Origin: a virus
Taxonomy: Duplodnaviria > Caudoviricetes
Length of the DNA: 64,000 nucleotides
Reading direction: 5' to 3' (one strand)
IMG/VR virus record: IMGVR_UViG_3300031949_000016
Span: 22,692 to 86,691 of that record
The position numbers and the translations under genes are program-made. This document shows, one piece after another, positions 23,901 to 29,510 of this stretch (positions are counted from its first letter, which is position 1; each line of letters opens with the position of its first letter). Under the pieces are notes generated by a model. It saw only the letters and a list, made by a program, of their open reading frames with translations. It searched no databases and was not told the origin of the DNA.

Positions 23901-26900
23901 ACTCGACCGCCGCATACACATACGCCGGATCGATCCCGAAGCCCCGTAACTGTCCTTCCAACTCCGGCGACATATAGTCGATCGCCTTCCCCCTCCGCCA
24001 GTTATGATTTCTGAAATCGAAGAAGCCCTTCACCACCGCCCGCGCCGATTGCCAGCGTTCCACCTTCTGCGCCGCCGCCGTCGCCGGCATCTTGCTAGAA
24101 ATCTTATGCCCCAGTTCCGTGATCTTATGCACCAGATCGGTTTGCTGAAAGCCCGCCGTCAATTCCCGCTCACCAACCTTGTACGCCTTCACCCCCCACG
24201 CCTCGGCGTCGTTCAACTCGGACAAGTCTGCCGCACTCGCGCCGGCCCGCAGCCGTGATGGATCGAGTCCCATGTGCCGCATCCGCTCGATGCCGGCCTT
24301 CACGCCCGTCAAGCCCCACACCCCGCGCGCCATCATCGTCACTTCGCCGTTCCATACGTTGTTCATCAAAAAGCCCAGGTTCGGCCCCATCAACAGCGTA
24401 CTCTCGACGGCCTTCACCGCGCCCGCCAACCGCTGCGCAAAGCCCGGCGGCTGCACCTGGAACGTCTTCGCCGCCCACAAACCCGTGTTCTCCAGGATGA
24501 TGGAGAACAACGCGGCCTTGTACTGCTCGTTATTGAACGGCACCATCCGACCATCTTTGTCCACTTCCTTAAACAACTTCTGGATGGCGACCAAATCGTC
24601 CGCCGTCGCATCAGCAGCGCCAATCTTCAGACGCTCTCCCTTCGCCTTTGCCCCTTTGCCGCTTTGCGTGAGAACCTCAGCGTCCGCGAACTCGCGCAGA
24701 ACCGCCTTGCCATCACCCGCCTTGATCCGTGCAAAGATACCCGCCGGCGTGTCATTCAACGCCCGCGCCGCAGTCTCGATCGCGCCGGCCTGCAATCGGC
24801 TGTTCTTGAAGCCGTCGAGCAGATCCGTGTACGACTCCGCCTCGCCCAGCGACCGCACATGCACCCGCCCCTCCAGCGTCTGCAAAGCGCCGACATACGC
24901 ATCCCGCCCCGCGAAGTCCTTCGGTAGTTTGCTCGGATCAGACCCGATCGTAGACAGCACCGCCGCCGTGATCTTGTCGGCATACAGCGGATCGTTCACG
25001 TCCATCCGATTGTTCAACTGTGACTGCCAGAAGTTGAGGCTCTGGTGCATGTTCTCCTTCGCCTCGCTCATCGGCTCCAGCGTGAACAGCCCCTTGATGC
25101 CCTTCGTCTCGGCGTATGTCCCTGTCTCCGCCAACTTCGCCATCGTCTTGCCCACGTACAACTTCTGTAACCAATTCAGATCGCGCGCCGCCACGAAGTC
25201 GGACCGGAACGGGATCTCGCTCGTGATGATCCTTCGATAATTCTCCAGCGTCTTCACCAGCCCGCCGGTGTAGGCGATGGTGGGAAACGGGAACTTATCC
25301 ATCTTCAACCGATGCGGCGTCGCTGATAGCGCCTTCGCCATCGCCTCGTCTTTCGCAAAGCGTGCGTACAACTTCAATGCGCCCCGCTGCCCCGCGCCGA
25401 TGAAGTTCAGCGGATCGAGCGTGATGTTCAGCGCCAGATCGCGGATCTGCCCCGGCGCTCCGAACGTCGCCGCGGCCAGTGCCTTCACCTGCTCCGGGTT
25501 CGCGCCGTTGATGATCTGCTGCCGTGCCCACGCAATCGCATTCACGCCTGGCATCGGTGCCGGTCCAGTGTCCCAGTCCACGAACTGCGCGTTATCCTGC
25601 CAGCCCCCCCACGGCGTATACGCCGGCTTGCCTTTCACGATCGCATCGGCCAAGTGCTCCACGCCGAACACGCCGCGCACGTCGATGTTCGCCGCCGTGT
25701 ACGTCAACTCCGCCGCATTCCACGCCGCCGCCAGGTTCTCCCCGAACGATTTGCTCTTATCAAATCCATACTGCTGAGGATTGACCAGCGACGCAATTCC
25801 CTGCACACCCGTGCCGATCAATCGTTTGGCCGTCTCAGCCGGCGCGTTCAATACCGTCAACGCCACGCCCGGCAGTGATTGATCGTATGCTCGCTTCGCC
25901 GACGCCAGTTCTTCCGCTGTCTTTGCCGTCTCCTGCATTTGCCGCATCTGCTCGTTCTGGATCAACATCCCGATCGTGCCAGCCGCCCCACCGAGCGCCG
26001 CGCCCAGCGGCCCTAAGATCGCCCCTCCCACCAGCGCCGCCGGCAAGCCACCCTGCAGCGCCGATTGGCCCAGCTGTACCCACGGGTTGCCCATCAGCCG
26101 ACCGAACCCGCCCCGCATCGTTGATTCAGGATCCCCCTCCGGCATCCCGAACTGCTGCCCCTGTGGTTTCCCAACCTCCTCCGGTGTCGTCAGCGGCGTC
26201 ATGCTCACCATCGGATTCAGCACGATGCGCCGATAAACCTTGCCCTTCTCCCGCCGATACTCGATGTTCCAATCCTGCCCCGGCGTGCCAGGGTCGATCA
26301 CGAATCCGCCCTGCTCGTCCAGCGTCTGGAACGGTGAGTAGGGCGCGTATGCTTGCGCCTCCTGATCGGTAGTCGTAGTCGTCGGCGCTTGCAATCCCAT
26401 CCTCGTCGCCGGATTGACCACGTTCGCAATCTGCATGATGCCCGTTACTTCCTCTCCCTTGTAGGGAGAGGGTTGGGGTGAGGGTGTTTCCGCAATCGCC
26501 AACTTCGGCGCAGTCGGCATAGTCGAAGACACCAGTTTTTGCGGTGCCGGTGCCTTAATCCCCAGCATCTTGAACTGTGGTGCCGCCGCCATCCGCTGCC
26601 CGAACGTCTCCCACGCCGGCCGCACCGCCTCGACCGCCTTCATCACCTGCTGGTATCGGGTCAGGCTTTCCTTGTCCGGCATCACGTACAACTTACCGTC
26701 GTCCCTGATCTCGACCTTCGACTTGGCAAAGTTCAACCACGTCGGCGCACGCTGCCGCACGTCCAGCGGTTGATGTGGAACCTTCAACGATTCCCACAGA
26801 CGGCGCGATTGATCCGGCGTAATATCCGGTGGCGCGATCACGCGATCAGTCGTCTTAGGTTTGATCGGGATGAACTTCCAACGAGGTACAGGATTCGGAT

Positions 26901-26919
26901 TGATCGGTGGATTCGGCAT
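5974..26919 (-). CDS. Giant polyvalent protein (~6,980 aa), DarB-like MTase/helicase fused to many domains, probably virion-delivered
   Basis: One uninterrupted ORF; GGAG RBS before ATG 26919; domain motifs listed below; lies downstream of the portal. Confidence 0.9.
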   Translation of the reverse strand: MPNPPINPNPVPRWKFIPIKPKTTDRVIAPPDITPDQSRRLWESLKVPHQPLDVRQRAPTWLNFAKSKVEIRDDGKLYVMPDKESLTRYQQVMKAVEAVRPAWETFGQRMAAAPQFKMLGIKAPAPQKLVSSTMPTAPKLAIAETPSPQPSPYKGEEVTGIMQIANVVNPATRMGLQAPTTTTTDQEAQAYAPYSPFQTLDEQGGFVIDPGTPGQDWNIEYRREKGKVYRRIVLNPMVSMTPLTTPEEVGKPQGQQFGMPEGDPESTMRGGFGRLMGNPWVQLGQSALQGGLPAALVGGAILGPLGAALGGAAGTIGMLIQNEQMRQMQETAKTAEELASAKRAYDQSLPGVALTVLNAPAETAKRLIGTGVQGIASLVNPQQYGFDKSKSFGENLAAAWNAAELTYTAANIDVRGVFGVEHLADAIVKGKPAYTPWGGWQDNAQFVDWDTGPAPMPGVNAIAWARQQIINGANPEQVKALAAATFGAPGQIRDLALNITLDPLNFIGAGQRGALKLYARFAKDEAMAKALSATPHRLKMDKFPFPTIAYTGGLVKTLENYRRIITSEIPFRSDFVAARDLNWLQKLYVGKTMAKLAETGTYAETKGIKGLFTLEPMSEAKENMHQSLNFWQSQLNNRMDVNDPLYADKITAAVLSTIGSDPSKLPKDFAGRDAYVGALQTLEGRVHVRSLGEAESYTDLLDGFKNSRLQAGAIETAARALNDTPAGIFARIKAGDGKAVLREFADAEVLTQSGKGAKAKGERLKIGAADATADDLVAIQKLFKEVDKDGRMVPFNNEQYKAALFSIILENTGLWAAKTFQVQPPGFAQRLAGAVKAVESTLLMGPNLGFLMNNVWNGEVTMMARGVWGLTGVKAGIERMRHMGLDPSRLRAGASAADLSELNDAEAWGVKAYKVGERELTAGFQQTDLVHKITELGHKISSKMPATAAAQKVERWQSARAVVKGFFDFRNHNWRRGKAIDYMSPELEGQLRGFGIDPAYVYAAVESGANPREIRGAIFAAAPKPILHQYIGQVARDLGLADDEITRLLSIDGLDQVINDELGKLPDKPTDGHIRKAFDNVRARGEQSVNEAAQVEAEQFGAHAMEAIKAGDVGAALDSIDGIETRLFDTYAYTMLRHDEEWAKIEQQPKKPLRDFMIEQLREKDAQSWKTYFDYEDAVYRGIETGMKDAGLNLSDNWLTAARDKRARVETFIGERNKILAQFFADKRTDEAWIQTQNVLNNLYTQLADDQLAINTRVDAYLSAEFKRAFGDTTGDAFANWRETVRKFNDEDMRAVAAFRDSMKDVKGRKIKGQRWLAFNKERTTRRRMIMIQGMEARHRVMEVMPIKPGIETTKVVTTDFETVNGRTPFAPERAPVGPAPVHVPTPVEVLPDVNAARAAAGQPPIERAEAIPPEELRAAQDAALAEEMVSPQMRAEGEARVPVMITRDMRQRLYDLGYTSDVVNAMTPLRANEILSAGTTAVRPVPVLANMDRAALKATGWDRGVQGLLRAVNKDRKVKGLDPYGTAAEVPLTEAVESMNMRLEARRADVARKMAETDAAKRLADGALSATDQVAKVVQADADVNVAAAELVAPLPGDGPAAAPAWTRQRFADEVAAKWYDAATPDYGDKVAALMALMDAQAGVWSRTFDLPAEEFYSLWAGVIGEAPRAIGPEKFAQWASETGFTQAEVDQAIKSGRFVSPSAWPEKTPEQIDRLNAVVEEAKKYPAARGLTDQYGTPLFQMEPTLTPALSLEGRGGRAPKAAFELVDGWQRTIRGFEARDTSSFVHEAAHGFLYDLYDASHVSKQALDDVGTFRDWLKTEHGLDVALVDGRIVANSDTLPTGWEAVERDGVTVVSNRRGEIVGQGTERSQAIRMGLDNGAQEEWARGFERYMVDGYAPTPQLRQLFERFKKWLVEVYKRIKGTDIDINLTPEMRAVYDRLLTEVEPAYPMTNVPHGLRVDQFVKQSDYRSAYSGQYVQGESILASSKTVPSTVFERLPLRPGQWVIDDAYGGIYGHEIEQVRLLDPDTLRPTEHMVEGNEQGRGWDADRYAAWLREGRNAPPIRVVEHIDGGHVVTDGHRRLAAAKQAGFPVLAIVSPLMDTGTFDSGGRMMQTGMTYEGALLDAFRRGDAVDLEQVVAVRAEVMDGQYPNLKRKFPDLFTGPDVSDGSLIGAHVAVTGLDEIGKVIDVFTPGRAKLVLDSGREITVPRKDITAVASTPAEIEAMKPSPQRTGIVSEPVVAPEVVQAPEQVAAQFQQMRAEAFRTSPQQAAMFPLGEDLPLVSGAGRRGVVESFAPAEAVPVERLPGFETRPEFGAVSRKGAKPQREAGPMFGEVAPVPATFVKPKAPWEIRRDEYALDSWQEELERFRDRPDILDTKDRKTEIEHFKEIHAGSVNKAIDDGRPVPAEVLADYPVLEKKAQRRWVKPVQSDLVPVVVDNKRVDVALRASIDEMTTADRAEAIQILRDQILVNPVSNAPSVTAYHLVAKRAIQVHSDVDGLKWVNDTFGHGAGDALLRAKAQALREEGIETYHISGDEFYAQFDNVDEAQAAMQRVRDRLNHATVRWVNPDGSTHEATGVRFSYGYGTDATIAEAGLAADKAARIASGERSARGERPGGMVEPVEGAGVGAGGRAFGGGVATGGEVAAGAAKEPWQIRRDEWLQGDIRKQREAQALAKVEDSVAGIGRDKLVEIGYIKPDEATAEPWLERVATKKAEWVSRVLGGGIKNLKKGQSAIEFLSKPWNIFKDSEGETRLRKAALEYVRGRSDGWLEKGEGFDDPRVLTLAKHEAAVGDALEKGLPVPAEVLADYPFLVTKAEAATGYVAVAAAREIGRGAFARGVPRVPPSTMPSEGWKEWLTGWDEANLAADRPVFVRNNGDIGKVVRWDENGDPVVAWSDEPSKPYATKQWREIRARDFEELMGTRLGAARKSTMTAYADEYGWKLAQVELIESPYVRGSRLGERGNRLEWVDRETGKYGTGTASGRVEADGRVFIQGDDGQGYIKQSKEVEYAPSQPETRVSPAEVGEELIQPSGDRVEVTEAVHADVVNPPDEAFKVGDRVSLQDGKHGVISSVDTLQWQSIYGTDAGQSVYVRVKTDVGTDVSARMGELQHEVGEAPAVVRWPEVNGTPHDPADFERIIQYDLKKARSARDSARRRRTPVPRAEDIRKAEGYEKSAAEARRVIAEWTAQNPEEAAKYITPDPVVNAADQINPVATATGVRMQYNKAKSGVEIIFDDKPDQATLDELHAAGFRWSQPQKLWWAKQSERTIAAAKKFAGVVEGGEVSGKLEVVSADVAEVQKFLDAGRGAVLPDQVTPRHVAQTAFQKGDRVKWTTRDGKELTGTIDLNVYGTDTYVSVNVDQIVAVRGVPIGRIENVPLERVEMVEPRPVTPAEVVPSPQPSPYPARTGAFGGEGVMAGRENIARRIADSTRARAPDIVEVTSRKGDDGNWYRNDFFPRGVEGTSEWRVDGFAYRSPEGQTYGTLVDTREELIARHMARQNKDVGEFYDKLLAMPNEKLVEQAQYFLKETPKLEEVSPSPQPSPLLGEGVAPAFKPPEWFNEDYVSDSGYLRVYHDTRSRSGERVYMTYDTRKGDVSTSRVDTSKELSAAIQRVVNKDRLITEAEAVPVAARYEVVRNSRTRLYAVLDREQGGSFIQDVTQAEAERVAGQLNEAAAVPVAHKFNVGDVVNRGAMESYVVTGYADNGRVMVEPKGLNLAERTYSFNEDELTHVTTEAVPVQETVTHLTGEVTPSGDIIVTERPAYIRAKNDIMRVKRWEDEMPVGNWTSSPLVEYRATGSWKPATAGDFTEVGQQQMGGFRRKVIDSYRKEFEGVINAQRLEPTTTEVAGLIPEAIPVRPGDIGNVVVPPAGGGGPVGAGRPIAAVGVEPGAAVEGPVGGVNEPGTELRPGAGVGEGGLAAGRRAGAGGVAGAEPERVAPSPQPSPYEGEGATLPPVVHARNTPQAATGNNYHITASDHLGAGGKKTKYRENIEAIRLLKQLEAEGRKATPEEQEVLVRYVGWGGLAEVFDNKNAARTHWDYKTRRDLNNEWYDQYTEVKDLLTPEEYAAARASTTNAHYTSFDVISGMWQAVQRMGYDGGKVLEPAAGVGHFIGAMPPELFAKSKVVTVEMDTLTGRILNQLYQGTGNHISPYQDLPLPKNYFDLAISNVPFGNFGVADAEFLSRPHWLRGSIHNYYFAKALDQVRPGGMIAFITSSFTMDAPTSQRVREWLHTNGADFVGAIRLPDTAFKQNAGTEVMTDVIFLRKRLIGDTPTDTQWFKVVDWTGQDGKVYQINEYYRDHPEMMIGNAAESTMYKRFDEYSLRSKTDFQKDMNAVAKLTLKLDNPDDLPRMLNETIDRLPEDVIRTRTHLLPTEMEAEIVGRKRGAAGERRKPNAIYKNDQGQIRQYTVEGTLKGLEKPADVKPADWDQALARYPDYVTVRDAYQNVIDALREARPETDVRSAQQSLDAAYDAYVKKHGRFNERSNRRLFADDPDYPLMLSLEKVNETTGKIEKETLLTKIKPRGLPTTAENAHDALAISLLTRGSVDFDQMTRMTGKDVQTLADELGALVYHDPEAGWVTDDEYLSGNVRQKLAQAELLAKADPDYDRNVAALQKAQPAWIGYDKMKVKLGAGWIKPAYVQEFVAHLANYGYDATRAQWLRYIPETGDWVMAAPQWARGSNQMAAKWSTNRRSGIDLVDSILSGRKIEVRDTYKNDAGVEVSVINAKETEAARLVATRIENEFDKWVWTDEARRADLEKTYNDTFTSNVNRKYDGRKVYPDQRLPGMSETIEPLRDAQLTAIWRGVHTPNFGLFHDVGAGKTRIMIGIGMEQRRMGLRHNLMYVVPKDNYTDFSKEFHQMYPTANILELTARDISDEARRTLMMAKIAAGEYDAVLVPHSTFTLIPVRDETFNAYKQERIDSLKILLDELNDQAASYGSERDLRQQDPALDRSIRRLKNQIEKEGEQLRTPEKAAAEQAAKEARVSRKKGKTVKEKEKAIARKEAKVEEQFLKLEARRDRGLTFEDLGVDQMFVDEAHKFKNLPIDTNMATHVRGLGSTGKSSQRAEDLYMKLKYLQSRGGGSTFATGTPLSNSGSELYTMMKYLYSDRLKAMGIESFNAWAAMFANIYGRPERSATGGAWTRVNRFREYQNGRALLPLLFEFSDIQTADMLSLERPAFDIINHVIPQTEYQIRLNEDFQRRWKNIKPPRPGEKAEDYAFTIMNDAKDVALDIRLYDAAAADAGDSKVNTLVKNVDEIYKQTQDYNGAQLIFLNRGVYEHTMAAEEGAAARLKLSIYNDVRDKLIKAGVPKEEIAYIQDYPLGGASDKAVAKAMAARRELFEAVNDGKVRIVFGTYEGLGTGVNLQRRLFAVHEVDVPYKPSELTQSEGRILRPGNLHKAWDKSVQIHRYMLENSGDSFNWNLIVNKAKLMNQIFSGDVTIDSFETPDAGASGFDMSYVSTWNDPRALEYVDVSSRYTLLEMARNEFADRQKSYERRLARAQSDIPFYEKQAAEYAATAEKVAARRAEKFGATLNGKAIEKVGEAGDEVIAYVKKNFEAMNEENAKQLGAVWRTIGDTSSGFEVKVTARRNEYRDGKRIVDRPWFDVQIAFRDDPTIIYRRMGGFWLGEENAVTVGQIVNRNVADDITIASQTASGNATAARNSVAAAEAGLRETFPEEDEWKKLSVRMPELQAYMDNLQTVAAEKVAEVDGVNADTEASMKAEDLADDQVESPIEQTPRQVLYQVGDPVPAAVMGIPAPNGRGFMGGTTTARGADPTKTYDLRWRLVEMDDLIASHDSVGNVNAAYPPELQPRDRANAVNMLQVREIASKFESAAYLDDVRSIDRGAPIVGADGVVESGNGRTLALRMVADNAPEKYADYRDKLIARAGEYGFAPEQVGQMTRPVLVRERPSTALRSAQDAIAERMEFARAANVTPSAAMSASELAQRDARILSPVILNSLTIGESQTIEQALRSPANIDAVRAFVDALPETERGDVVDAAGNLSQNGIKRMTAALFAKTYPGEAGQRLVRVFFESTDNDIKRIANGMMASLGDVARAEGLIASGSRYAEFSIANDLAISVDKLATLRAEGTPVAHYLGQMQLFEKDLTPFQTDVLVTLDDLGRSGKKIGILLRDYASRVKASADPHQISMFAIEAPKKDTLWQLSKQALWGVDTPTGGLELYKMAEGESVPTSEGNKVVKQVTPKQVTVENPNGTTTAIPIIKPGSLPLPPGIVNEIGSMPTPYASAAMDVWQKQTMPVIDALESRMIEGLQSPYVKTGQTLDEPAKLGLNRWLDQQYGNMSNTNLGAMKWGEWLRDAALLNYSRRYKYNTLLGMVFPYEFWTTQSMMKWALHSIDKPSLVASYFRINKFLNTEVTREGTPSRLAGRIKIPLPFLPDWMGGGIFIDPMKIGLPIQNFIYPWEQFAEQEGRLTAKADRILTGWQDDDQQDADQVRSALESHSGTLWESAIAEAKKQDPNLDVDGVDLAFSVLSPHLPLSMAYNQLNGHPERNSPVPLTRYARAVSNALGVGDNLVNGVTRTLGLPVFDQWSDYRIDREISNMAADGLISADEARTAMIERKGQAFDIAVAREATMNFWQTGFGGLFGSAVGVYPEGEKKQRELGLLYSAAWQAQNNGDTGSITKFFNEHPEYEARLALYDNKDDRLRNFLVDKVWEKWANMPHAYRLDVQQAFGNDFDTMFLNKDTRSYSSIPIETLQQWAATMGMMIPNGPDVKPLPVEWTDPITAKQIEGYYTLREAMFNWPNVSDAQTEYFNLDHEKLDFTGAPAAVTDFVGLVRAQWPNIEQVIGEYLDLPKGSTERRQYKAAHPELTAYWNAVDRWKAQHPSLAGYVGSAGKMQNAVAVRVRDQFLQDNPAIEVYWDWRRSFLGQYPAVQPYLDETAKMYAQNETPAASDWYDAGYTIPPELSNIAVAWIFGGRRPNSSAMKKFTAAWNQAGQPYGSVEEWVMREMALQ
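8490..9580 (-). other. ddrB-like ParB-superfamily domain in the giant protein
   Basis: LIASHD...YPPELQPRDR...GAPIVGADGVVESGNGRTLAL. Confidence 0.65.
10660..12530 (-). other. SF2 (SNF2-like) helicase domains in the giant protein
   Basis: HDVGAGKT, FVDEAHKFKN, ATGTPLSN, GTGVNLQ, QSEGRILRPGN. Confidence 0.9.
14100..15010 (-). other. N6-adenine DNA methyltransferase domain in the giant protein
   Basis: YVGWGGL, NAHYT, VLEPAAGVGHF, ISNVPFG, VRPGGMIAFITS. Confidence 0.9.
15099..15404 (-). CDS. Nested out-of-frame ORF (101 aa) inside the giant gene
   Basis: Own GAGGGGG RBS 6 nt before ATG; helical protein-like sequence where the host frame is low-complexity Gly/Ala/Pro. Confidence 0.55.
   Translation of the reverse strand: MLNDWNPLPPKLQDLYRRLSPFGQEILEMWWFHRPEVVDQWEQDGQLLPLVSSLAQRSKDQLAELMSQGRSYDQALELVKADWPLEDAPEPEELPEPSLSE
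19153..19510 (-). other. GGDEF-type diguanylate cyclase domain in the giant protein
   Basis: DVDGLKWVNDTFGHGAGDALL...HISGDEF...RFSYG. Confidence 0.85.
20620..20830 (-). other. ParB/sulfiredoxin-like domain in the giant protein
   Basis: PPIRVV...VTDGHRRLAAA. Confidence 0.7.
21080..21640 (-). other. Zincin-like metallopeptidase region in the giant protein
   Basis: FVHEAAH with downstream EEWARGFERY...LFERFKKWLVEVY. Confidence 0.6.
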
Positions 26920-26936
26920 TTGCTTCTCCAAAATAA

Positions 26937-26998
26937 AACGCGCCGACTGTTTGGGCAGTTCTGTGTGACTGCCCAAAGTCGGCGCGTTGTTGTCCGTT
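26937..26998 (-). promoter_or_regulatory. Conserved leader hairpin, copy 1 (attenuator-like)
   Basis: AACGGACAAC-AACGCGCCGAC...GTCGGCGCGTT-TTATTTT directly upstream of the giant gene. Confidence 0.55.
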
Positions 26999-27045
26999 AG
27001 CCAGACGAAGTACCCGTCCCCAAAAGAATGGGGATTGTTTCATCT

Positions 27046-27075
27046 ATCTTATCATAGTCAAACTTCATAAGTCAA
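27046..27075 (-). promoter_or_regulatory. Late-gene promoter
   Basis: TTGACT-18-TAAGAT with extended TG. Confidence 0.6.
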
Positions 27076-27089
27076 TTTGGTTCCTATCC

Positions 27090-27118
27090 TTGACATGCAC
27101 ACGCAGCGCGTATATAAT
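27090..27118 (+). promoter_or_regulatory. Consensus sigma70 promoter of the RAMP cassette
   Basis: TTGACA-17-TATAAT; ATG 6 nt downstream. Confidence 0.85.
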
Positions 27119-27124
27119 GTACGC

Positions 27125-27334
27125 ATGAAGACCATACGCCTGACCGATGAACTCTACCGGCAACTCGCCGAACGTGCAAAACGAACACACCGCTCGATAA
27201 ACTCCGAGGCTGTGTTCGCGGTTGAATCCTATCTCATAAGCGTTTCGGAATCCATGCCAGAAATACCCCGCGAAGACGCGCCACCCATCAAGCGACGGCG
27301 TTCTCGAATGCCGACCAACCATCCTAATCCATAA
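27125..27334 (+). CDS. Arc-like ribbon-helix-helix regulator, leaderless
   Basis: MKTIRLTDELYRQLAERAKRTHRSINSEAV. Confidence 0.8.
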   Translation: MKTIRLTDELYRQLAERAKRTHRSINSEAVFAVESYLISVSESMPEIPREDAPPIKRRRSRMPTNHPNP

Positions 27335-27352
27335 CACGAAAGGATAAGTATC

Positions 27353-27907
27353 ATGTACGTCATCACGGGAGAAATTCAGGGGGTTGCACCATTGCTGTTC
27401 AACAAGATGCTGGAAGGCGAACTCGAACAAACAGCGTCCAGCAAAACCCTCAAGGGCCGCGTGACCGTTGAAGACCGCATCGCGGAAGCGGAAAACCGAG
27501 TGTATCGAAACGAGGCTGGCATCATTTACCTGCCGGGTTGGAACTTCAAGCAATGCCTGTTGGAAGGCTGCCGACGCTCCGGCCTCAAAGTCGGGCGCGG
27601 TTCACTGATGCCCTATCTGCAAGCCGCCGTGTTTCCCGATCGGGAATTGTATTTCTCGAACCGGAAGACGCACGATTTCATGCACGAGAATTGGGGCCGA
27701 CGGCCCCCGCGCACCGGCGGCGCATGTATGGTCAGGCGTCCGGCGCTCAAGGAAGGCTGGAAGTTGGCCTTCAACCTGAACATCGTCGACGATCGCCGTC
27801 ACCCCGAAGAGATCAAACGCTCGCTTGAAGAAGCCGGCCTGCTCGTCGGCATCGGCTCGTGGCGACCGGAGTACGGTCGCTTCATCGTGACAAAGTTTGC
27901 ATCTTAG
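27353..27907 (+). CDS. Solitary Cas7/RAMP-like protein (Vipr-like candidate)
   Basis: N-terminal strand plus GVAPLLFN, IYLPGWNFKQCL, Gly-rich loop GLLVGIGSWRPEYGRF; flanked by pentamer arrays. Confidence 0.7.
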   Translation: MYVITGEIQGVAPLLFNKMLEGELEQTASSKTLKGRVTVEDRIAEAENRVYRNEAGIIYLPGWNFKQCLLEGCRRSGLKVGRGSLMPYLQAAVFPDRELYFSNRKTHDFMHENWGRRPPRTGGACMVRRPALKEGWKLAFNLNIVDDRRHPEEIKRSLEEAGLLVGIGSWRPEYGRFIVTKFAS

Positions 27908-27918
27908 AACTTGAATAA

Positions 27919-27983
27919 TGCGCGGCATGGCCGGGCGTAGCCTGGCCGGGCTCGGCAAGGCTAAGCAAAGCAAGGCAAGGGCA
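27919..27983 (+). repeat. Pentamer array 1, (NGC-NN)12 plus GGG; candidate guide RNA
   Basis: 8 GGC, 3 AGC, 1 TGC at exact 5-nt period in intergenic DNA. Confidence 0.85.
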
Positions 27984-28003
27984 TCACAACAAGAAGGAGA
28001 ATC

Positions 28004-28312
28004 ATGGACCGTGACAGCAAACGCTTGGAACCCATTATCGACCCGGCGATCAACGCCATTCGATCCATCCTGACGGACGGCGAGCACACCGACAACGAGA
28101 TCACCGCCGCCCGCATCGCCAGCAGTGTTCTGGCCACCTGGTCTAAACTCAAGCAAAGCGAGCGCGCGCAAGAAGCCGTCTACTTTGCAATGGCCCGCGA
28201 ACTCGCGCAAGATCAGGAACAACTCGCCAAATACATATCGATGACCCTGCCCGATGTTCCACTGGTCAGAGTCCTCGACGCCAAGAAGTTGCCCGCTCCA
28301 AAGAAGAAGTAA
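28004..28312 (+). CDS. Hypothetical helical protein between the two arrays
   Basis: Strong AAGGAG RBS; ORF track. Confidence 0.75.
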   Translation: MDRDSKRLEPIIDPAINAIRSILTDGEHTDNEITAARIASSVLATWSKLKQSERAQEAVYFAMARELAQDQEQLAKYISMTLPDVPLVRVLDAKKLPAPKKK

Positions 28313-28316
28313 ACGC

Positions 28317-28386
28317 GGCAATGCTCGGCATGGCGTAGCAAGGCGAAGCACGGCATGGCGTAGCGAGGCGAAGCCCGGCAGGGGAC
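28317..28386 (+). repeat. Pentamer array 2, (NGC-NN)13 plus GGG; candidate guide RNA
   Basis: 8 GGC, 4 AGC, 1 TGC at exact 5-nt period in intergenic DNA. Confidence 0.85.
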
Positions 28387-28398
28387 GTAACAAGATCT

Positions 28399-28429
28399 AA
28401 CGCGCCAACGACTTCATCGCAGGCGCGTT
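28399..28429. terminator. Hairpin between convergent transcription units
   Basis: AACGCGCC...GGCGCGTT inverted repeat. Confidence 0.5.
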
Positions 28430-28486
28430 GGTTAATTCACCAATTACTAATTACAAAGTTCCCGTATACTGTCTGGACCAGTTATC

Positions 28487-29350
28487 TCAAATTCTCCACG
28501 TCATCATGTTGTACCACCAGTCGGCCGGTTTGCTAGGCCCGTAATCAGGGTAGGACGGATACGGATACCCACCTCCGCCATACCCTCCACCGCCTCCACC
28601 CCCCGTATACGCCGGCATCGCCACCGGCTCTTCATTCGCCAGCCCCAGCCGCGCCTTATCGTACTCCCGCATCCTCACCCGCAAGTCCTCGATGTCGTAC
28701 ATATTATCGGGTGCTGGCTGCAGTCGCGCGGCCTCGTTCGCGGTCAGTTCGCTGCGCAGGATCGGCGGAGTCTGCGGCGCGAAGTGCATCCCGCGCGTCG
28801 CCGGACTGCCCGGCAGCAAATACAACGGTGGCTCGGCCATCCCCGGCACCGGCTGCCCGCTGCCCCCCGGCAAATCATAGTACGCCGTTGGCACAGCCGG
28901 ATACAGTCCTCCGCCTTCTCCGAACGCCCGCATCTTCCGTGCGTAAGCCGCCGTCGAAAATGGATTGTTTGGATCGAAAAATGGCGCAGCCGATGCCATC
29001 TCTTGCGCACTGACAGCACCCACCGGCCCAGAATACAGCGGCCGGCCTCGGATGTCCAGCGCATACTGCGGATTCATGACGCTGGCTTGACTTCCGAACC
29101 TGCTTTGGAATGCCGGCGGGATATTGCCCCGCCCCCCGCCTCGCCCGCGAAACCGCATCGCCTCAATATCGCCCGGACTCGGCACCCGATTGCGCGCCGT
29201 CAGCGTTGAAGATACCGGTTTTTGTGGGGTCGGCCTCCACCTGCTGCGCAAATCCTCGATGTCCATTAGACCACCCTTCGTCGGCGGAGTCGGCATCCGT
29301 TCCTTATTCATGAATCGCCGATATAAATCCTTCCAATCGTCGTAGGCCAT
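28487..29350 (-). CDS. Pro/Gly-rich hypothetical protein, possibly virion-associated
   Basis: ORF track; start moved to MAYDD at 29350. Confidence 0.65.
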   Translation of the reverse strand: MAYDDWKDLYRRFMNKERMPTPPTKGGLMDIEDLRSRWRPTPQKPVSSTLTARNRVPSPGDIEAMRFRGRGGGRGNIPPAFQSRFGSQASVMNPQYALDIRGRPLYSGPVGAVSAQEMASAAPFFDPNNPFSTAAYARKMRAFGEGGGLYPAVPTAYYDLPGGSGQPVPGMAEPPLYLLPGSPATRGMHFAPQTPPILRSELTANEAARLQPAPDNMYDIEDLRVRMREYDKARLGLANEEPVAMPAYTGGGGGGGYGGGGYPYPSYPDYGPSKPADWWYNMMTWRI

Positions 29351-29483
29351 GAGATAATCCCCCTCTCTTGGTGGGATGAGATAATCCCCCTCTCTTGGTG
29401 GGATGAGATAATCCCCCTCTCTTGGTGGGATGAGATAATCCCCCTCTCTTGGTGGGATGAGATAATCCCCCTCTCTTGGTGGG
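29349..29483 (+). repeat. Perfect 27-bp tandem repeat, 5 copies
   Basis: ATGAGATAATCCCCCTCTCTTGGTGGG x5. Confidence 0.95.
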
Positions 29484-29510
29484 ATGACTTCACCCCCCAT
29501 TCACCATTGA

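What the first reader, a model, noticed from the sequence alone, without database searches (positions are those of the whole stretch)
27090..28429. Candidate RNA-guided system: solitary Cas7/RAMP-like gene with two (NGC-NN)n arrays (VIPR-like)
Seen: a self-contained + strand cassette inserted among - strand virion genes and lacking their C skew. It has a consensus promoter, an Arc-like gene, a 184-aa gene with RAMP-like motifs, a 12-unit pentamer array, a 102-aa ORF, a 13-unit array and a hairpin. I see no cas1/2/3/5/6/10 and no CRISPR array in the window. Established: Cas7-group RAMPs polymerise along guide RNA with fixed periodicity. Inference: each constant triplet is gripped by one protomer and the variable dinucleotides jointly spell a gapped target, giving nuclease-free silencing of rival phage or host DNA. 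This matches my recollection of recently reported VIPR systems (GGY/NN repeats), which I cannot verify here; this locus uses GGC/AGC/TGC triplets.
Basis: partly seen in the sequence, partly recalled or inferred. Interest (0 to 1): 0.95.

Follow-up and report, generated by a model that had tools for sequence, protein, structure and literature searches.

The report
Phage VIPR RNA-guided silencing cassette
This uncultured phage carries a genuine VIPR system, a small CRISPR-like protein plus two guide RNAs built from five-letter repeats. That family was first described in 2026 preprints, so this is a tidy new member with a few variant features and not a new kind of system.

Summary
At 27090-28431 a + strand cassette sits among - strand virion genes. 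It holds a perfect sigma-70 promoter, an Arc/RHH gene, a 184-aa gene, a 12-unit pentamer array, a 102-aa gene, a 13-unit array and a hairpin.

Variant features:
- The scaffold is RGC/NN (G 64%, A 28%, T 8% at position 1). The two SUSP1 residues that read G1 are replaced (H17 to N, D177 to S).
- The tail is short and unstructured (GGGCA).
- The 102-aa helical partner gene is conserved in 15 of 16 loci and is unrelated to SUSP1-clade vap1.
- The RHH gene is specific to this locus.

No natural target was found, and no self-target. The database hits were at chance level. This scan has already noted VIPR-like loci in at least 296 other genomes. Verdict: new member of a known kind, moderate to low interest.

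The parts
27090..27118 (+). Cassette promoter, TTGACA-17 nt-TATAAT. The expected start site falls about at the A of the RHH ATG (27125), so the RHH mRNA is probably leaderless (inference).
   Evidence: 12 of 12 consensus matches. It is the only strong + strand promoter-like site in 26800-28700.
27125..27334 (+). 69-aa ribbon-helix-helix (Arc/MetJ-type) protein, the likely transcriptional regulator of the cassette. It is not conserved in related VIPR loci.
   Evidence: Pfam Arc 3.2e-5, plus FitA-like RHH and ParD-like. PHROG Arc-like repressors and RHH partition proteins; no homologue in L001-L015.
27353..27907 (+). vipr: 184-aa single-RRM RAMP (Cas7-like), the RNA-binding filament subunit. The thumb hairpin is about residues 109-132 (WGRRPPRTGGA loop). 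The G-loop is residues 165-177 (VGIGSWRPEYGRF).
27919..27990 (+). vrRNA1. It has 12 pentamer units (27919-27978) with NN = GC AT CG GT CT CG TC AA TA AA AA AA. A short tail GGGCATCAC follows and runs into the RBS of the next gene.
   Evidence: The 3' end AGCAA GGCAA GGGCA recurs in L001, L003 and L040. The tail has no predicted structure.
28004..28312 (+). 102-aa helical protein with a basic C-terminal tail (KKLPAPKKK). It is the clade's conserved accessory gene and a vap candidate. Its function is unknown.
   Evidence: Homologues sit on the same strand next to vipr in 15 of 16 loci. AF2 pLDDT 83, four helices. No PDB fold match with E below 0.8. No Pfam or PHROG match. hhalign to wV8 vap1: 0.2%.
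28317..28396 (+). vrRNA2. It has 13 pentamer units (28317-28381) with NN = AA TC AT GT AA GA AC AT GT GA GA CC AG, then a tail GGGACGTAACAAGATC. Units 3-7 are repeated as units 8-12, with both differences in NN positions.
   Evidence: Tandem Repeats Finder: period 25, 2.2 copies, 93% match. The 5' element AATGC[G/T]CGGCATGGC is shared with vrRNA1 (27917-27931 against 28320-28334; read).
28397..28431 (.). 10-bp-stem hairpin ending the cassette. It also lies just downstream of the convergent - strand gene 28487-29500, so it is probably a bidirectional terminator (inference; no canonical T run).
   Evidence: -20.7 kcal/mol, z -2.5. The consensus scan did not call it a terminator.

Best explanation
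This is a working VIPR (Viral Interference Programmable Repeat) system in a roughly 87-kb uncultured tailed phage.

One strong promoter probably drives a single transcript: RHH regulator, vipr, vrRNA1, 102-aa accessory gene, vrRNA2, hairpin.

The mechanism is inferred by homology to SUSP1 Vipr. One Vipr protomer binds each pentamer. The thumb and G-loop flip out the constant RGC triplet, and the NN dinucleotides are presented for pairing. The filament then binds double-stranded DNA that reads NN-x-NN-x... (one skipped base per unit) and silences transcription without cutting. The likely targets are a rival phage, a satellite or a prophage in the same unknown host.

Shown here: homology, fold, array anatomy, co-occurrence of the arrays and the accessory gene with vipr across relatives, and absence of self-targets.

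Inferred: transcription and processing of the arrays, Vipr binding, the skip rule in this clade, the targets, and the roles of the RHH and 102-aa proteins.
For: - Profile hit to the solved SUSP1 Vipr at E 1e-16, covering residues 4-177 of 184. hhalign probability 98%.
- The thumb Arg and G-loop Trp-Arg that contact the scaffold in SUSP1 (R138, W178, R179) are kept as R129, W170 and R171.
- 25 of 25 units keep G at position 2 and C at position 3, while positions 4-5 use all four bases. There were 0 such arrays in shuffles.
- All 15 IMG/VR homologue loci have same-strand arrays within about 1 kb of vipr.
- The 102-aa gene family accompanies vipr in 15 of 16 loci.
- No self-target: best 16 of 24 and 17 of 26, no better than shuffled guides. 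The paper reports the same for its systems.
- The record is a virus record, CheckV 93% complete, with no Cas1 and no Pfam RAMP hit.
Against: - There are no expression or binding data.
- No natural target was found in IMG/VR, the metagenome collection or 185,579 species genomes with sub-patterns of 9-10 units. The only hits were 20/24 in an AT-rich phage terminase gene, 21/26 in a Clostridium GGDEF gene and 22/26 in a serS-like gene of an Oceanicola MAG. These are at chance level.
- The residues that read G1 in SUSP1 (H17, D177) are N and S here.
- No structured or pseudoknot tail was found.
- The accessory gene is unrelated to vap1, so type II details may not transfer.
Confidence: 0.88

Rival explanations
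1. It is a VIPR-family system that works differently from type II in this clade. For example it might bind RNA like its closest structural neighbours (Csm3, type VII Cas7), or use another skip length because the scaffold pocket and helical insert differ.
For: The best structural matches are RNA-targeting Cas7 proteins. H17, D177, E71 and M72 are replaced. The helical insert (residues 21-47) is shorter and less confidently modelled (pLDDT 73-76). No 1-nt-skip target was found.
Against: The protein is homologous over its full length to a Vipr shown to bind dsDNA. 0-skip scans also found nothing. The paper reports alternative scaffolds (NNNGG, YNNNG, NNNNG) within VIPR.
Confidence: 0.07
2. The arrays are DNA-level protein-binding repeats, for example centromere-like or operator sites for the RHH protein in a ParG-type partition or regulatory module. 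They would not be guide RNA genes.
For: The best PHROG hits of the RHH protein are RHH parts of 'partition protein' families (2.8e-8). RHH proteins often bind tandem repeats (established knowledge).
Against: There is no ParA ATPase in the cassette. The RHH gene is absent from all 15 related loci, while the arrays always accompany vipr. The repeat shows the published vrRNA pattern of a fixed triplet and a free dinucleotide.
Confidence: 0.02
3. It is a decayed or silent relic: the genes and arrays are present but no longer functional.
For: No target was found. vrRNA2 contains a recent internal duplication.
Against: All three ORFs are intact and have Shine-Dalgarno sites. The promoter is a perfect consensus. 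All 25 units keep the scaffold. The key RNA-contact residues are conserved.
Confidence: 0.03

Closest known systems
Type II VIPR of Escherichia phage SUSP1 and other Felixounaviruses (Vipr, vap1, four vrRNAs; bioRxiv 10.64898/2026.04.26.720920, .720927, 2026.10.15.759431; PDB 36pp)
   Same: Both have a homologous Vipr protein (about 29% identity over 97% of the length). Both are minimal loci with vipr plus one small partner gene. Both have same-strand arrays of 12-13 pentamer units with a fixed triplet and free NN, placed beside and between the genes. Both are phage-borne, have no CRISPR or cas genes, and have no self-target.
   Different: The scaffold is RGC (G, A or T at position 1; always C at position 3) and not GGY. 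The G1-reading residues are changed: H17 to N and D177 to S. The Y3 pocket residues E71/M72 are W63/N64 here. The tail is short and unstructured (GGGCA...), where SUSP1 has a roughly 40-nt pseudoknot tail. The partner gene is unrelated to vap1 (hhalign 0.2%). There is an extra RHH gene and one consensus promoter. The targets are unknown.
Cas7-family RAMPs of class 1 CRISPR effectors (Csm3, Cmr4, type VII Cas7, gRAMP/Cas7-11)
   Different: Sequence identity is only 11-20%. There is no CRISPR array, no Cas1 and no other Pfam RAMP hit in the genome. The period is 5 nt with 2 read bases, not 6 nt with 5 read bases. It stands alone rather than in a multi-subunit effector.
Arc/MetJ ribbon-helix-helix repressors (Pfam PF03869 and relatives)
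   Same: The N-terminal beta-strand and two-helix motif matches at Arc E 3e-5. The gene is first, directly behind the promoter, as in autoregulated phage modules.
   Different: The operator was not identified. It is not part of the conserved VIPR module in relatives.

Membership tests
VIPR system | Vipr protein homologous to the reference Vipr | tested here: met
   PDB 36pp SUSP1 Vipr: E 2.3e-7 with the single sequence and 1e-16 with the profile, full length. hhalign 98% to wV8 gp096.
VIPR system | Tandem pentamer vrRNA repeats (at least 4 units of YNNGG or a related consensus) next to vipr on the same strand, with NN hypervariable | tested here: met
   There are 12 and 13 perfect units. Positions 2-3 are 100% G and C. 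Position 1 is G 64%, A 28%, T 8%. Positions 4-5 use all four bases. This corresponds to the paper's alternative YNNNG class. All 15 homologue loci have the same feature.
VIPR system | Scaffold-contacting residues of SUSP1 Vipr (H17, R138, D177, W178, R179) | tested here: inconclusive
   R129, W170 and R171 are kept. H17 is N17 and D177 is S169. This fits the relaxed first scaffold base, but it was not tested biochemically.
VIPR system | Invariable structured 3' tail on each vrRNA | tested here: inconclusive
   A short motif, GCAA/G-GGG(C)A, is shared by both arrays and by L001, L003 and L040. No stable structure is predicted for the tail of vrRNA1. vrRNA2 is followed by a hairpin. There is no Rfam ribozyme.
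VIPR system | Minimal locus with an accessory vap gene; no cas genes and no CRISPR array | tested here: met
   The 102-aa gene family lies beside vipr in 15 of 16 loci. No Cas1 or Pfam RAMP hit was found and no CRISPR-like repeat. It is not homologous to vap1. Identity with vap2-6 could not be tested because no supplement is held.
VIPR system | vrRNAs are expressed and co-purify with Vipr | not testable with these tools
   This needs small-RNA sequencing and a pull-down.
VIPR system | Guides match natural dsDNA targets by the 1-nt-skip rule, and there is no self-target | tested here: inconclusive
   No self-target was found. No convincing external target was found. The host and its mobile elements are unknown.
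Assignment to one of VIPR types I-VII | Place in the Vipr phylogeny, vrRNA architecture and vap family, as in the paper's Fig. 5 and data S4 | not testable with these tools
   The main text gives no sequences for types other than II, and no supplementary files are held. By accessory gene it is not type II.
Class 1 CRISPR-Cas effector (Cas7) | CRISPR array and an adjoining cas operon (Cas1/2, Cas5, large subunit) | tested here: not met
   The cassette has only three small genes.
ParG/ParA-type partition module | RHH centromere-binding protein paired with a ParA ATPase | tested here: not met
   There is no ATPase gene in the cassette. The middle gene is a RAMP.

The most novel reading that the evidence does not exclude
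The window's clade may be a distinct VIPR subtype that the published typing does not cover in detail.

Its scaffold tolerates A, G or T at the first position because the G1 pocket is rebuilt (N17, S/A/G169). Its guides end in a short unstructured GGGCA handle and not a pseudoknot. Its universal 100-aa helical partner, unrelated to vap1, would be a filament cofactor. That could be a stand-alone counterpart of the Cas11-like helical bundle, or a DNA anchor.

Block duplication inside vrRNA2, with changes only at NN positions, would then show how such guides are made and diversified without Cas1-Cas2.
Probability: 0.25. Interest if true: 0.5.

Novelty: new member of a known kind. Interest (0 to 1): 0.3.

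Why it matters
It adds a clean, compact example of VIPR from an uncultured GC-rich phage: 1.3 kb, one promoter, two guides. This example is far from the Escherichia and Pseudomonas model systems, at about 29% Vipr identity.

Three features are useful for anyone mapping the limits of the VIPR code or building small programmable repressors:
- the relaxed RGC scaffold paired with changed G1-pocket residues;
- the different, clade-wide accessory protein;
- the near-absence of a structured tail.

It does not change what is known about the family.

Tried and rejected
**Target search by the 1-nt-skip rule**
- Own 86.7-kb genome: best 16/24 and 17/26, equal to shuffled guides.
- 34 guides from related loci against all held loci and the genome: nothing beyond chance.
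- IMG/VR exact scans with 9-unit sub-patterns of both guides. The hits were a giant-virus MAG at 18/26 and a terminase gene of a 39%-GC phage at 20/24. The units outside the sub-pattern matched no better than chance.
- Metagenome scan with 10 units of vrRNA2: seven contigs, all the same Clostridium GGDEF/GAF gene, 21/26.
- Species genomes: the same Clostridium gene, plus a serS-like gene of an Oceanicola MAG at 22/26.
- vrRNA1 in species genomes: nothing.
- The serS-like site is not shared. Only 3 of 201 genomes of that family match with up to 3 mismatches, and none matches better.
- With 20 specified bases about one chance locus is expected per collection of this size. By the binomial, hundreds of sites at or above 22/26 are expected in 600 Gb. 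I reject these hits as targets.
- 0-skip (contiguous) scans: nothing.

**Other checks**
- Rfam: no ribozyme or known RNA in the cassette.
- 102-aa protein: no Pfam, PHROG, PDB-fold or informative Atlas match.
- A 16-nt 3'-handle scan of IMG/VR gave 106 mostly random hits. Only one (L040) was a real VIPR array.
- VIPR type assignment: no supplementary data are held.
The closest homologues, at about 70% identity on short contigs, could therefore not be fetched to compare guides at short evolutionary distance.

Full report
**What is there**

The window is part of a single 86,691-bp virus record: 59.5% GC, CheckV 93% complete, linear.

Between a 7000-aa - strand ORF (5974-26976) and further - strand virion genes lies a + strand cassette:
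- A perfect sigma-70 promoter, TTGACA-17-TATAAT, at 27090-27118. It scores 12 of 12 and is the only strong + strand site in the region.
- A 69-aa ribbon-helix-helix gene at 27125-27334. Pfam Arc is 3e-5, and several Arc-like PHROGs match.
- A 184-aa gene at 27353-27907.
- Twelve pentamer units at 27919-27978.
- A 102-aa gene at 28004-28312.
- Thirteen pentamer units at 28317-28381.
- A hairpin with a 10-bp stem at 28397-28431.

The -10 box ends 6 nt before the RHH ATG, so that mRNA is probably leaderless (inference). The other two genes have AAGGA and AAGGAG Shine-Dalgarno sites.

**Is it more than chance?**

A pattern of ten in-phase GC dinucleotides, with up to one mismatch, matches only inside these two arrays in 64 kb. 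It gave no match in 100 dinucleotide-preserving shuffles. The rest of the genome has no further array.

All 25 units have G at position 2 and C at position 3. Position 1 is G in 16 units, A in 7 and T in 2. Positions 4-5 use all four bases.

**The protein**

Pfam finds nothing. The protein matches phrog_4652, a family of unknown function, at 4e-17. It also matches the chain deposited as 'SUSP1 Vipr protein' (PDB 36pp) at 2.3e-7.

A profile of 55 homologues raises this to 1e-16 and covers residues 4-177 of 184. hhalign to the orthologue in phage wV8 gives 98% probability.

**What VIPR is**

Three preprints describe the family:
- A lone, mostly phage-borne RAMP (Vipr), usually with one accessory gene (vap).
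- Guide RNAs (vrRNAs) of 9-16 YNNGG units, that is GGY/NN, followed by a tail.
- One protomer per unit, with the thumb and G-loop flipping out GGY.
- NN pairs with dsDNA that has one skipped base per unit. The result is transcriptional silencing of satellites and prophages.
- Seven types exist, with alternative scaffolds (NNNGG, YNNNG, NNNNG).

A scan of IMG/VR gave 15 loci encoding homologues at 24-61% identity. Every one has same-strand runs of NG[C/T]NN units within about 1 kb of the gene. There are one to five arrays of 6-19 units per locus. Positions 2-3 are almost fixed and positions 4-5 are free.

The 102-aa gene also belongs to the module. Its family lies directly upstream or downstream of vipr, on the same strand, in 15 of 16 loci. 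This fits the published picture of vipr plus one vap gene. The RHH gene is found only here.

**How this member differs from the SUSP1 model**

1. *Scaffold.* It is RGC rather than GGY. In SUSP1, G1 is read by H17 and D177; G2 by R138 and W178; Y3 by R179, E71 and M72. Here R129, W170 and R171 are kept, but H17 is N, D177 is S, and E71/M72 are W63/N64.
   - Across the 16 loci, proteins with N at position 17 go with mixed A/G at scaffold position 1 and C at position 3.
   - The three loci with D at position 17 (L013-L015) use GGT.
   - The sample is small and phylogenetically confounded, so this is a lead and not a demonstration.
2. *Tail.* Both arrays end in GGCA(A/G)-GGG. The motif GCAAGGGCA recurs in L001, L003 and a further locus, L040. 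The tail of vrRNA1 is unstructured and runs straight into the next gene's ribosome-binding site. Only vrRNA2 is followed by a hairpin. No ribozyme was found.
3. *Accessory protein.* It is a four-helix protein with a basic C-terminal tail. It has no fold, Pfam or PHROG match and no relation to the SUSP1-clade vap1.
4. *Shared ancestry of the two guides.* The two guides share a 5' element, AATGC[G/T]CGGCATGGC. vrRNA2 contains a 25-nt block duplication (units 3-7 and 8-12) whose two differences both fall in NN positions. This points to growth by duplication. Alternatively, the target may itself be 15-bp periodic.

**Targets**

Decoded by the 1-nt-skip rule, neither guide matches its own genome better than shuffled guides do. 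The authors report the same for their systems.

No cross-targeting was seen among the held relatives.

Exact scans with 9-10-unit sub-patterns in IMG/VR, the metagenome collection and 185,579 species genomes gave only isolated hits:
- a terminase gene of an AT-rich phage, 20/24;
- a Clostridium GGDEF gene, 21/26;
- a serS-like gene of an Oceanicola MAG, 22/26.

In each case the flanking units matched no better than chance. The serS-like site is not shared by related genomes. With 20 specified bases about one chance locus is expected per collection of this size. I therefore treat the targets as unknown. Contiguous (0-skip) scans also found nothing.

**Verdict**

This is a bona fide VIPR locus, probably functional. 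Its targets are unknown, and it carries some clade-specific features.

The family has been public since April 2026, and this scan has already noted VIPR-like loci in at least 296 genomes. It is therefore a new member of a known kind.

Noticed in passing
window 5974-26976 (-): A single 7000-aa ORF sits directly upstream of the cassette, divergently transcribed. Pfam finds a GGDEF domain and a ddrB-like ParB domain. The translation also shows methyltransferase-like and helicase-like stretches. It carries at least four in-frame copies of an 'SPSPQPSP..GEG' peptide, which look like small repeat-element insertions.
   Followed up: partly
window 29349-29487 (-): A perfect 27-nt tandem repeat of 5.1 copies encodes IPPREGDYL five times at the N-terminus of the 337-aa ORF 28487-29500.
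   Followed up: no
window 26937-26988 and 28397-28431: A long nested hairpin (12-bp and 10-bp arms) lies between the divergent promoters upstream of the giant gene. Promoter-like sites on the - strand sit at 27075-27034. The stem sequence AACGCGCC/GGCGCGTT recurs in the hairpin that closes the VIPR cassette.
   Followed up: partly
L040 (IMGVR_UViG_3300046781_000075) 880-1060: This is a further VIPR locus found only through the shared 3' handle. It has the C-terminal end of a Vipr homologue, followed by two degenerate arrays ending in GGCAAGGGCAGTACC.
   Followed up: partly
L011 3537-3849; L009 3528-3709; L010 795-1058: In more distant relatives the guides are packed head to tail. Each ends in AGCGA-(A/G)GTTC, with only 2-3 nt between guides, and there are up to five guides per locus. 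L009 and L010 share an identical first guide but differ in later ones.
   Followed up: no
L028/L029 (Oceanicola sp. MAG, contig CAYVQK010000008.1) 3915-3943: vrRNA2 units 3-12 match a serS-like gene exactly, in codon register with the skipped base at the wobble position (22/26 overall). I judge this a chance match, because related genomes do not share it.
   Followed up: yes
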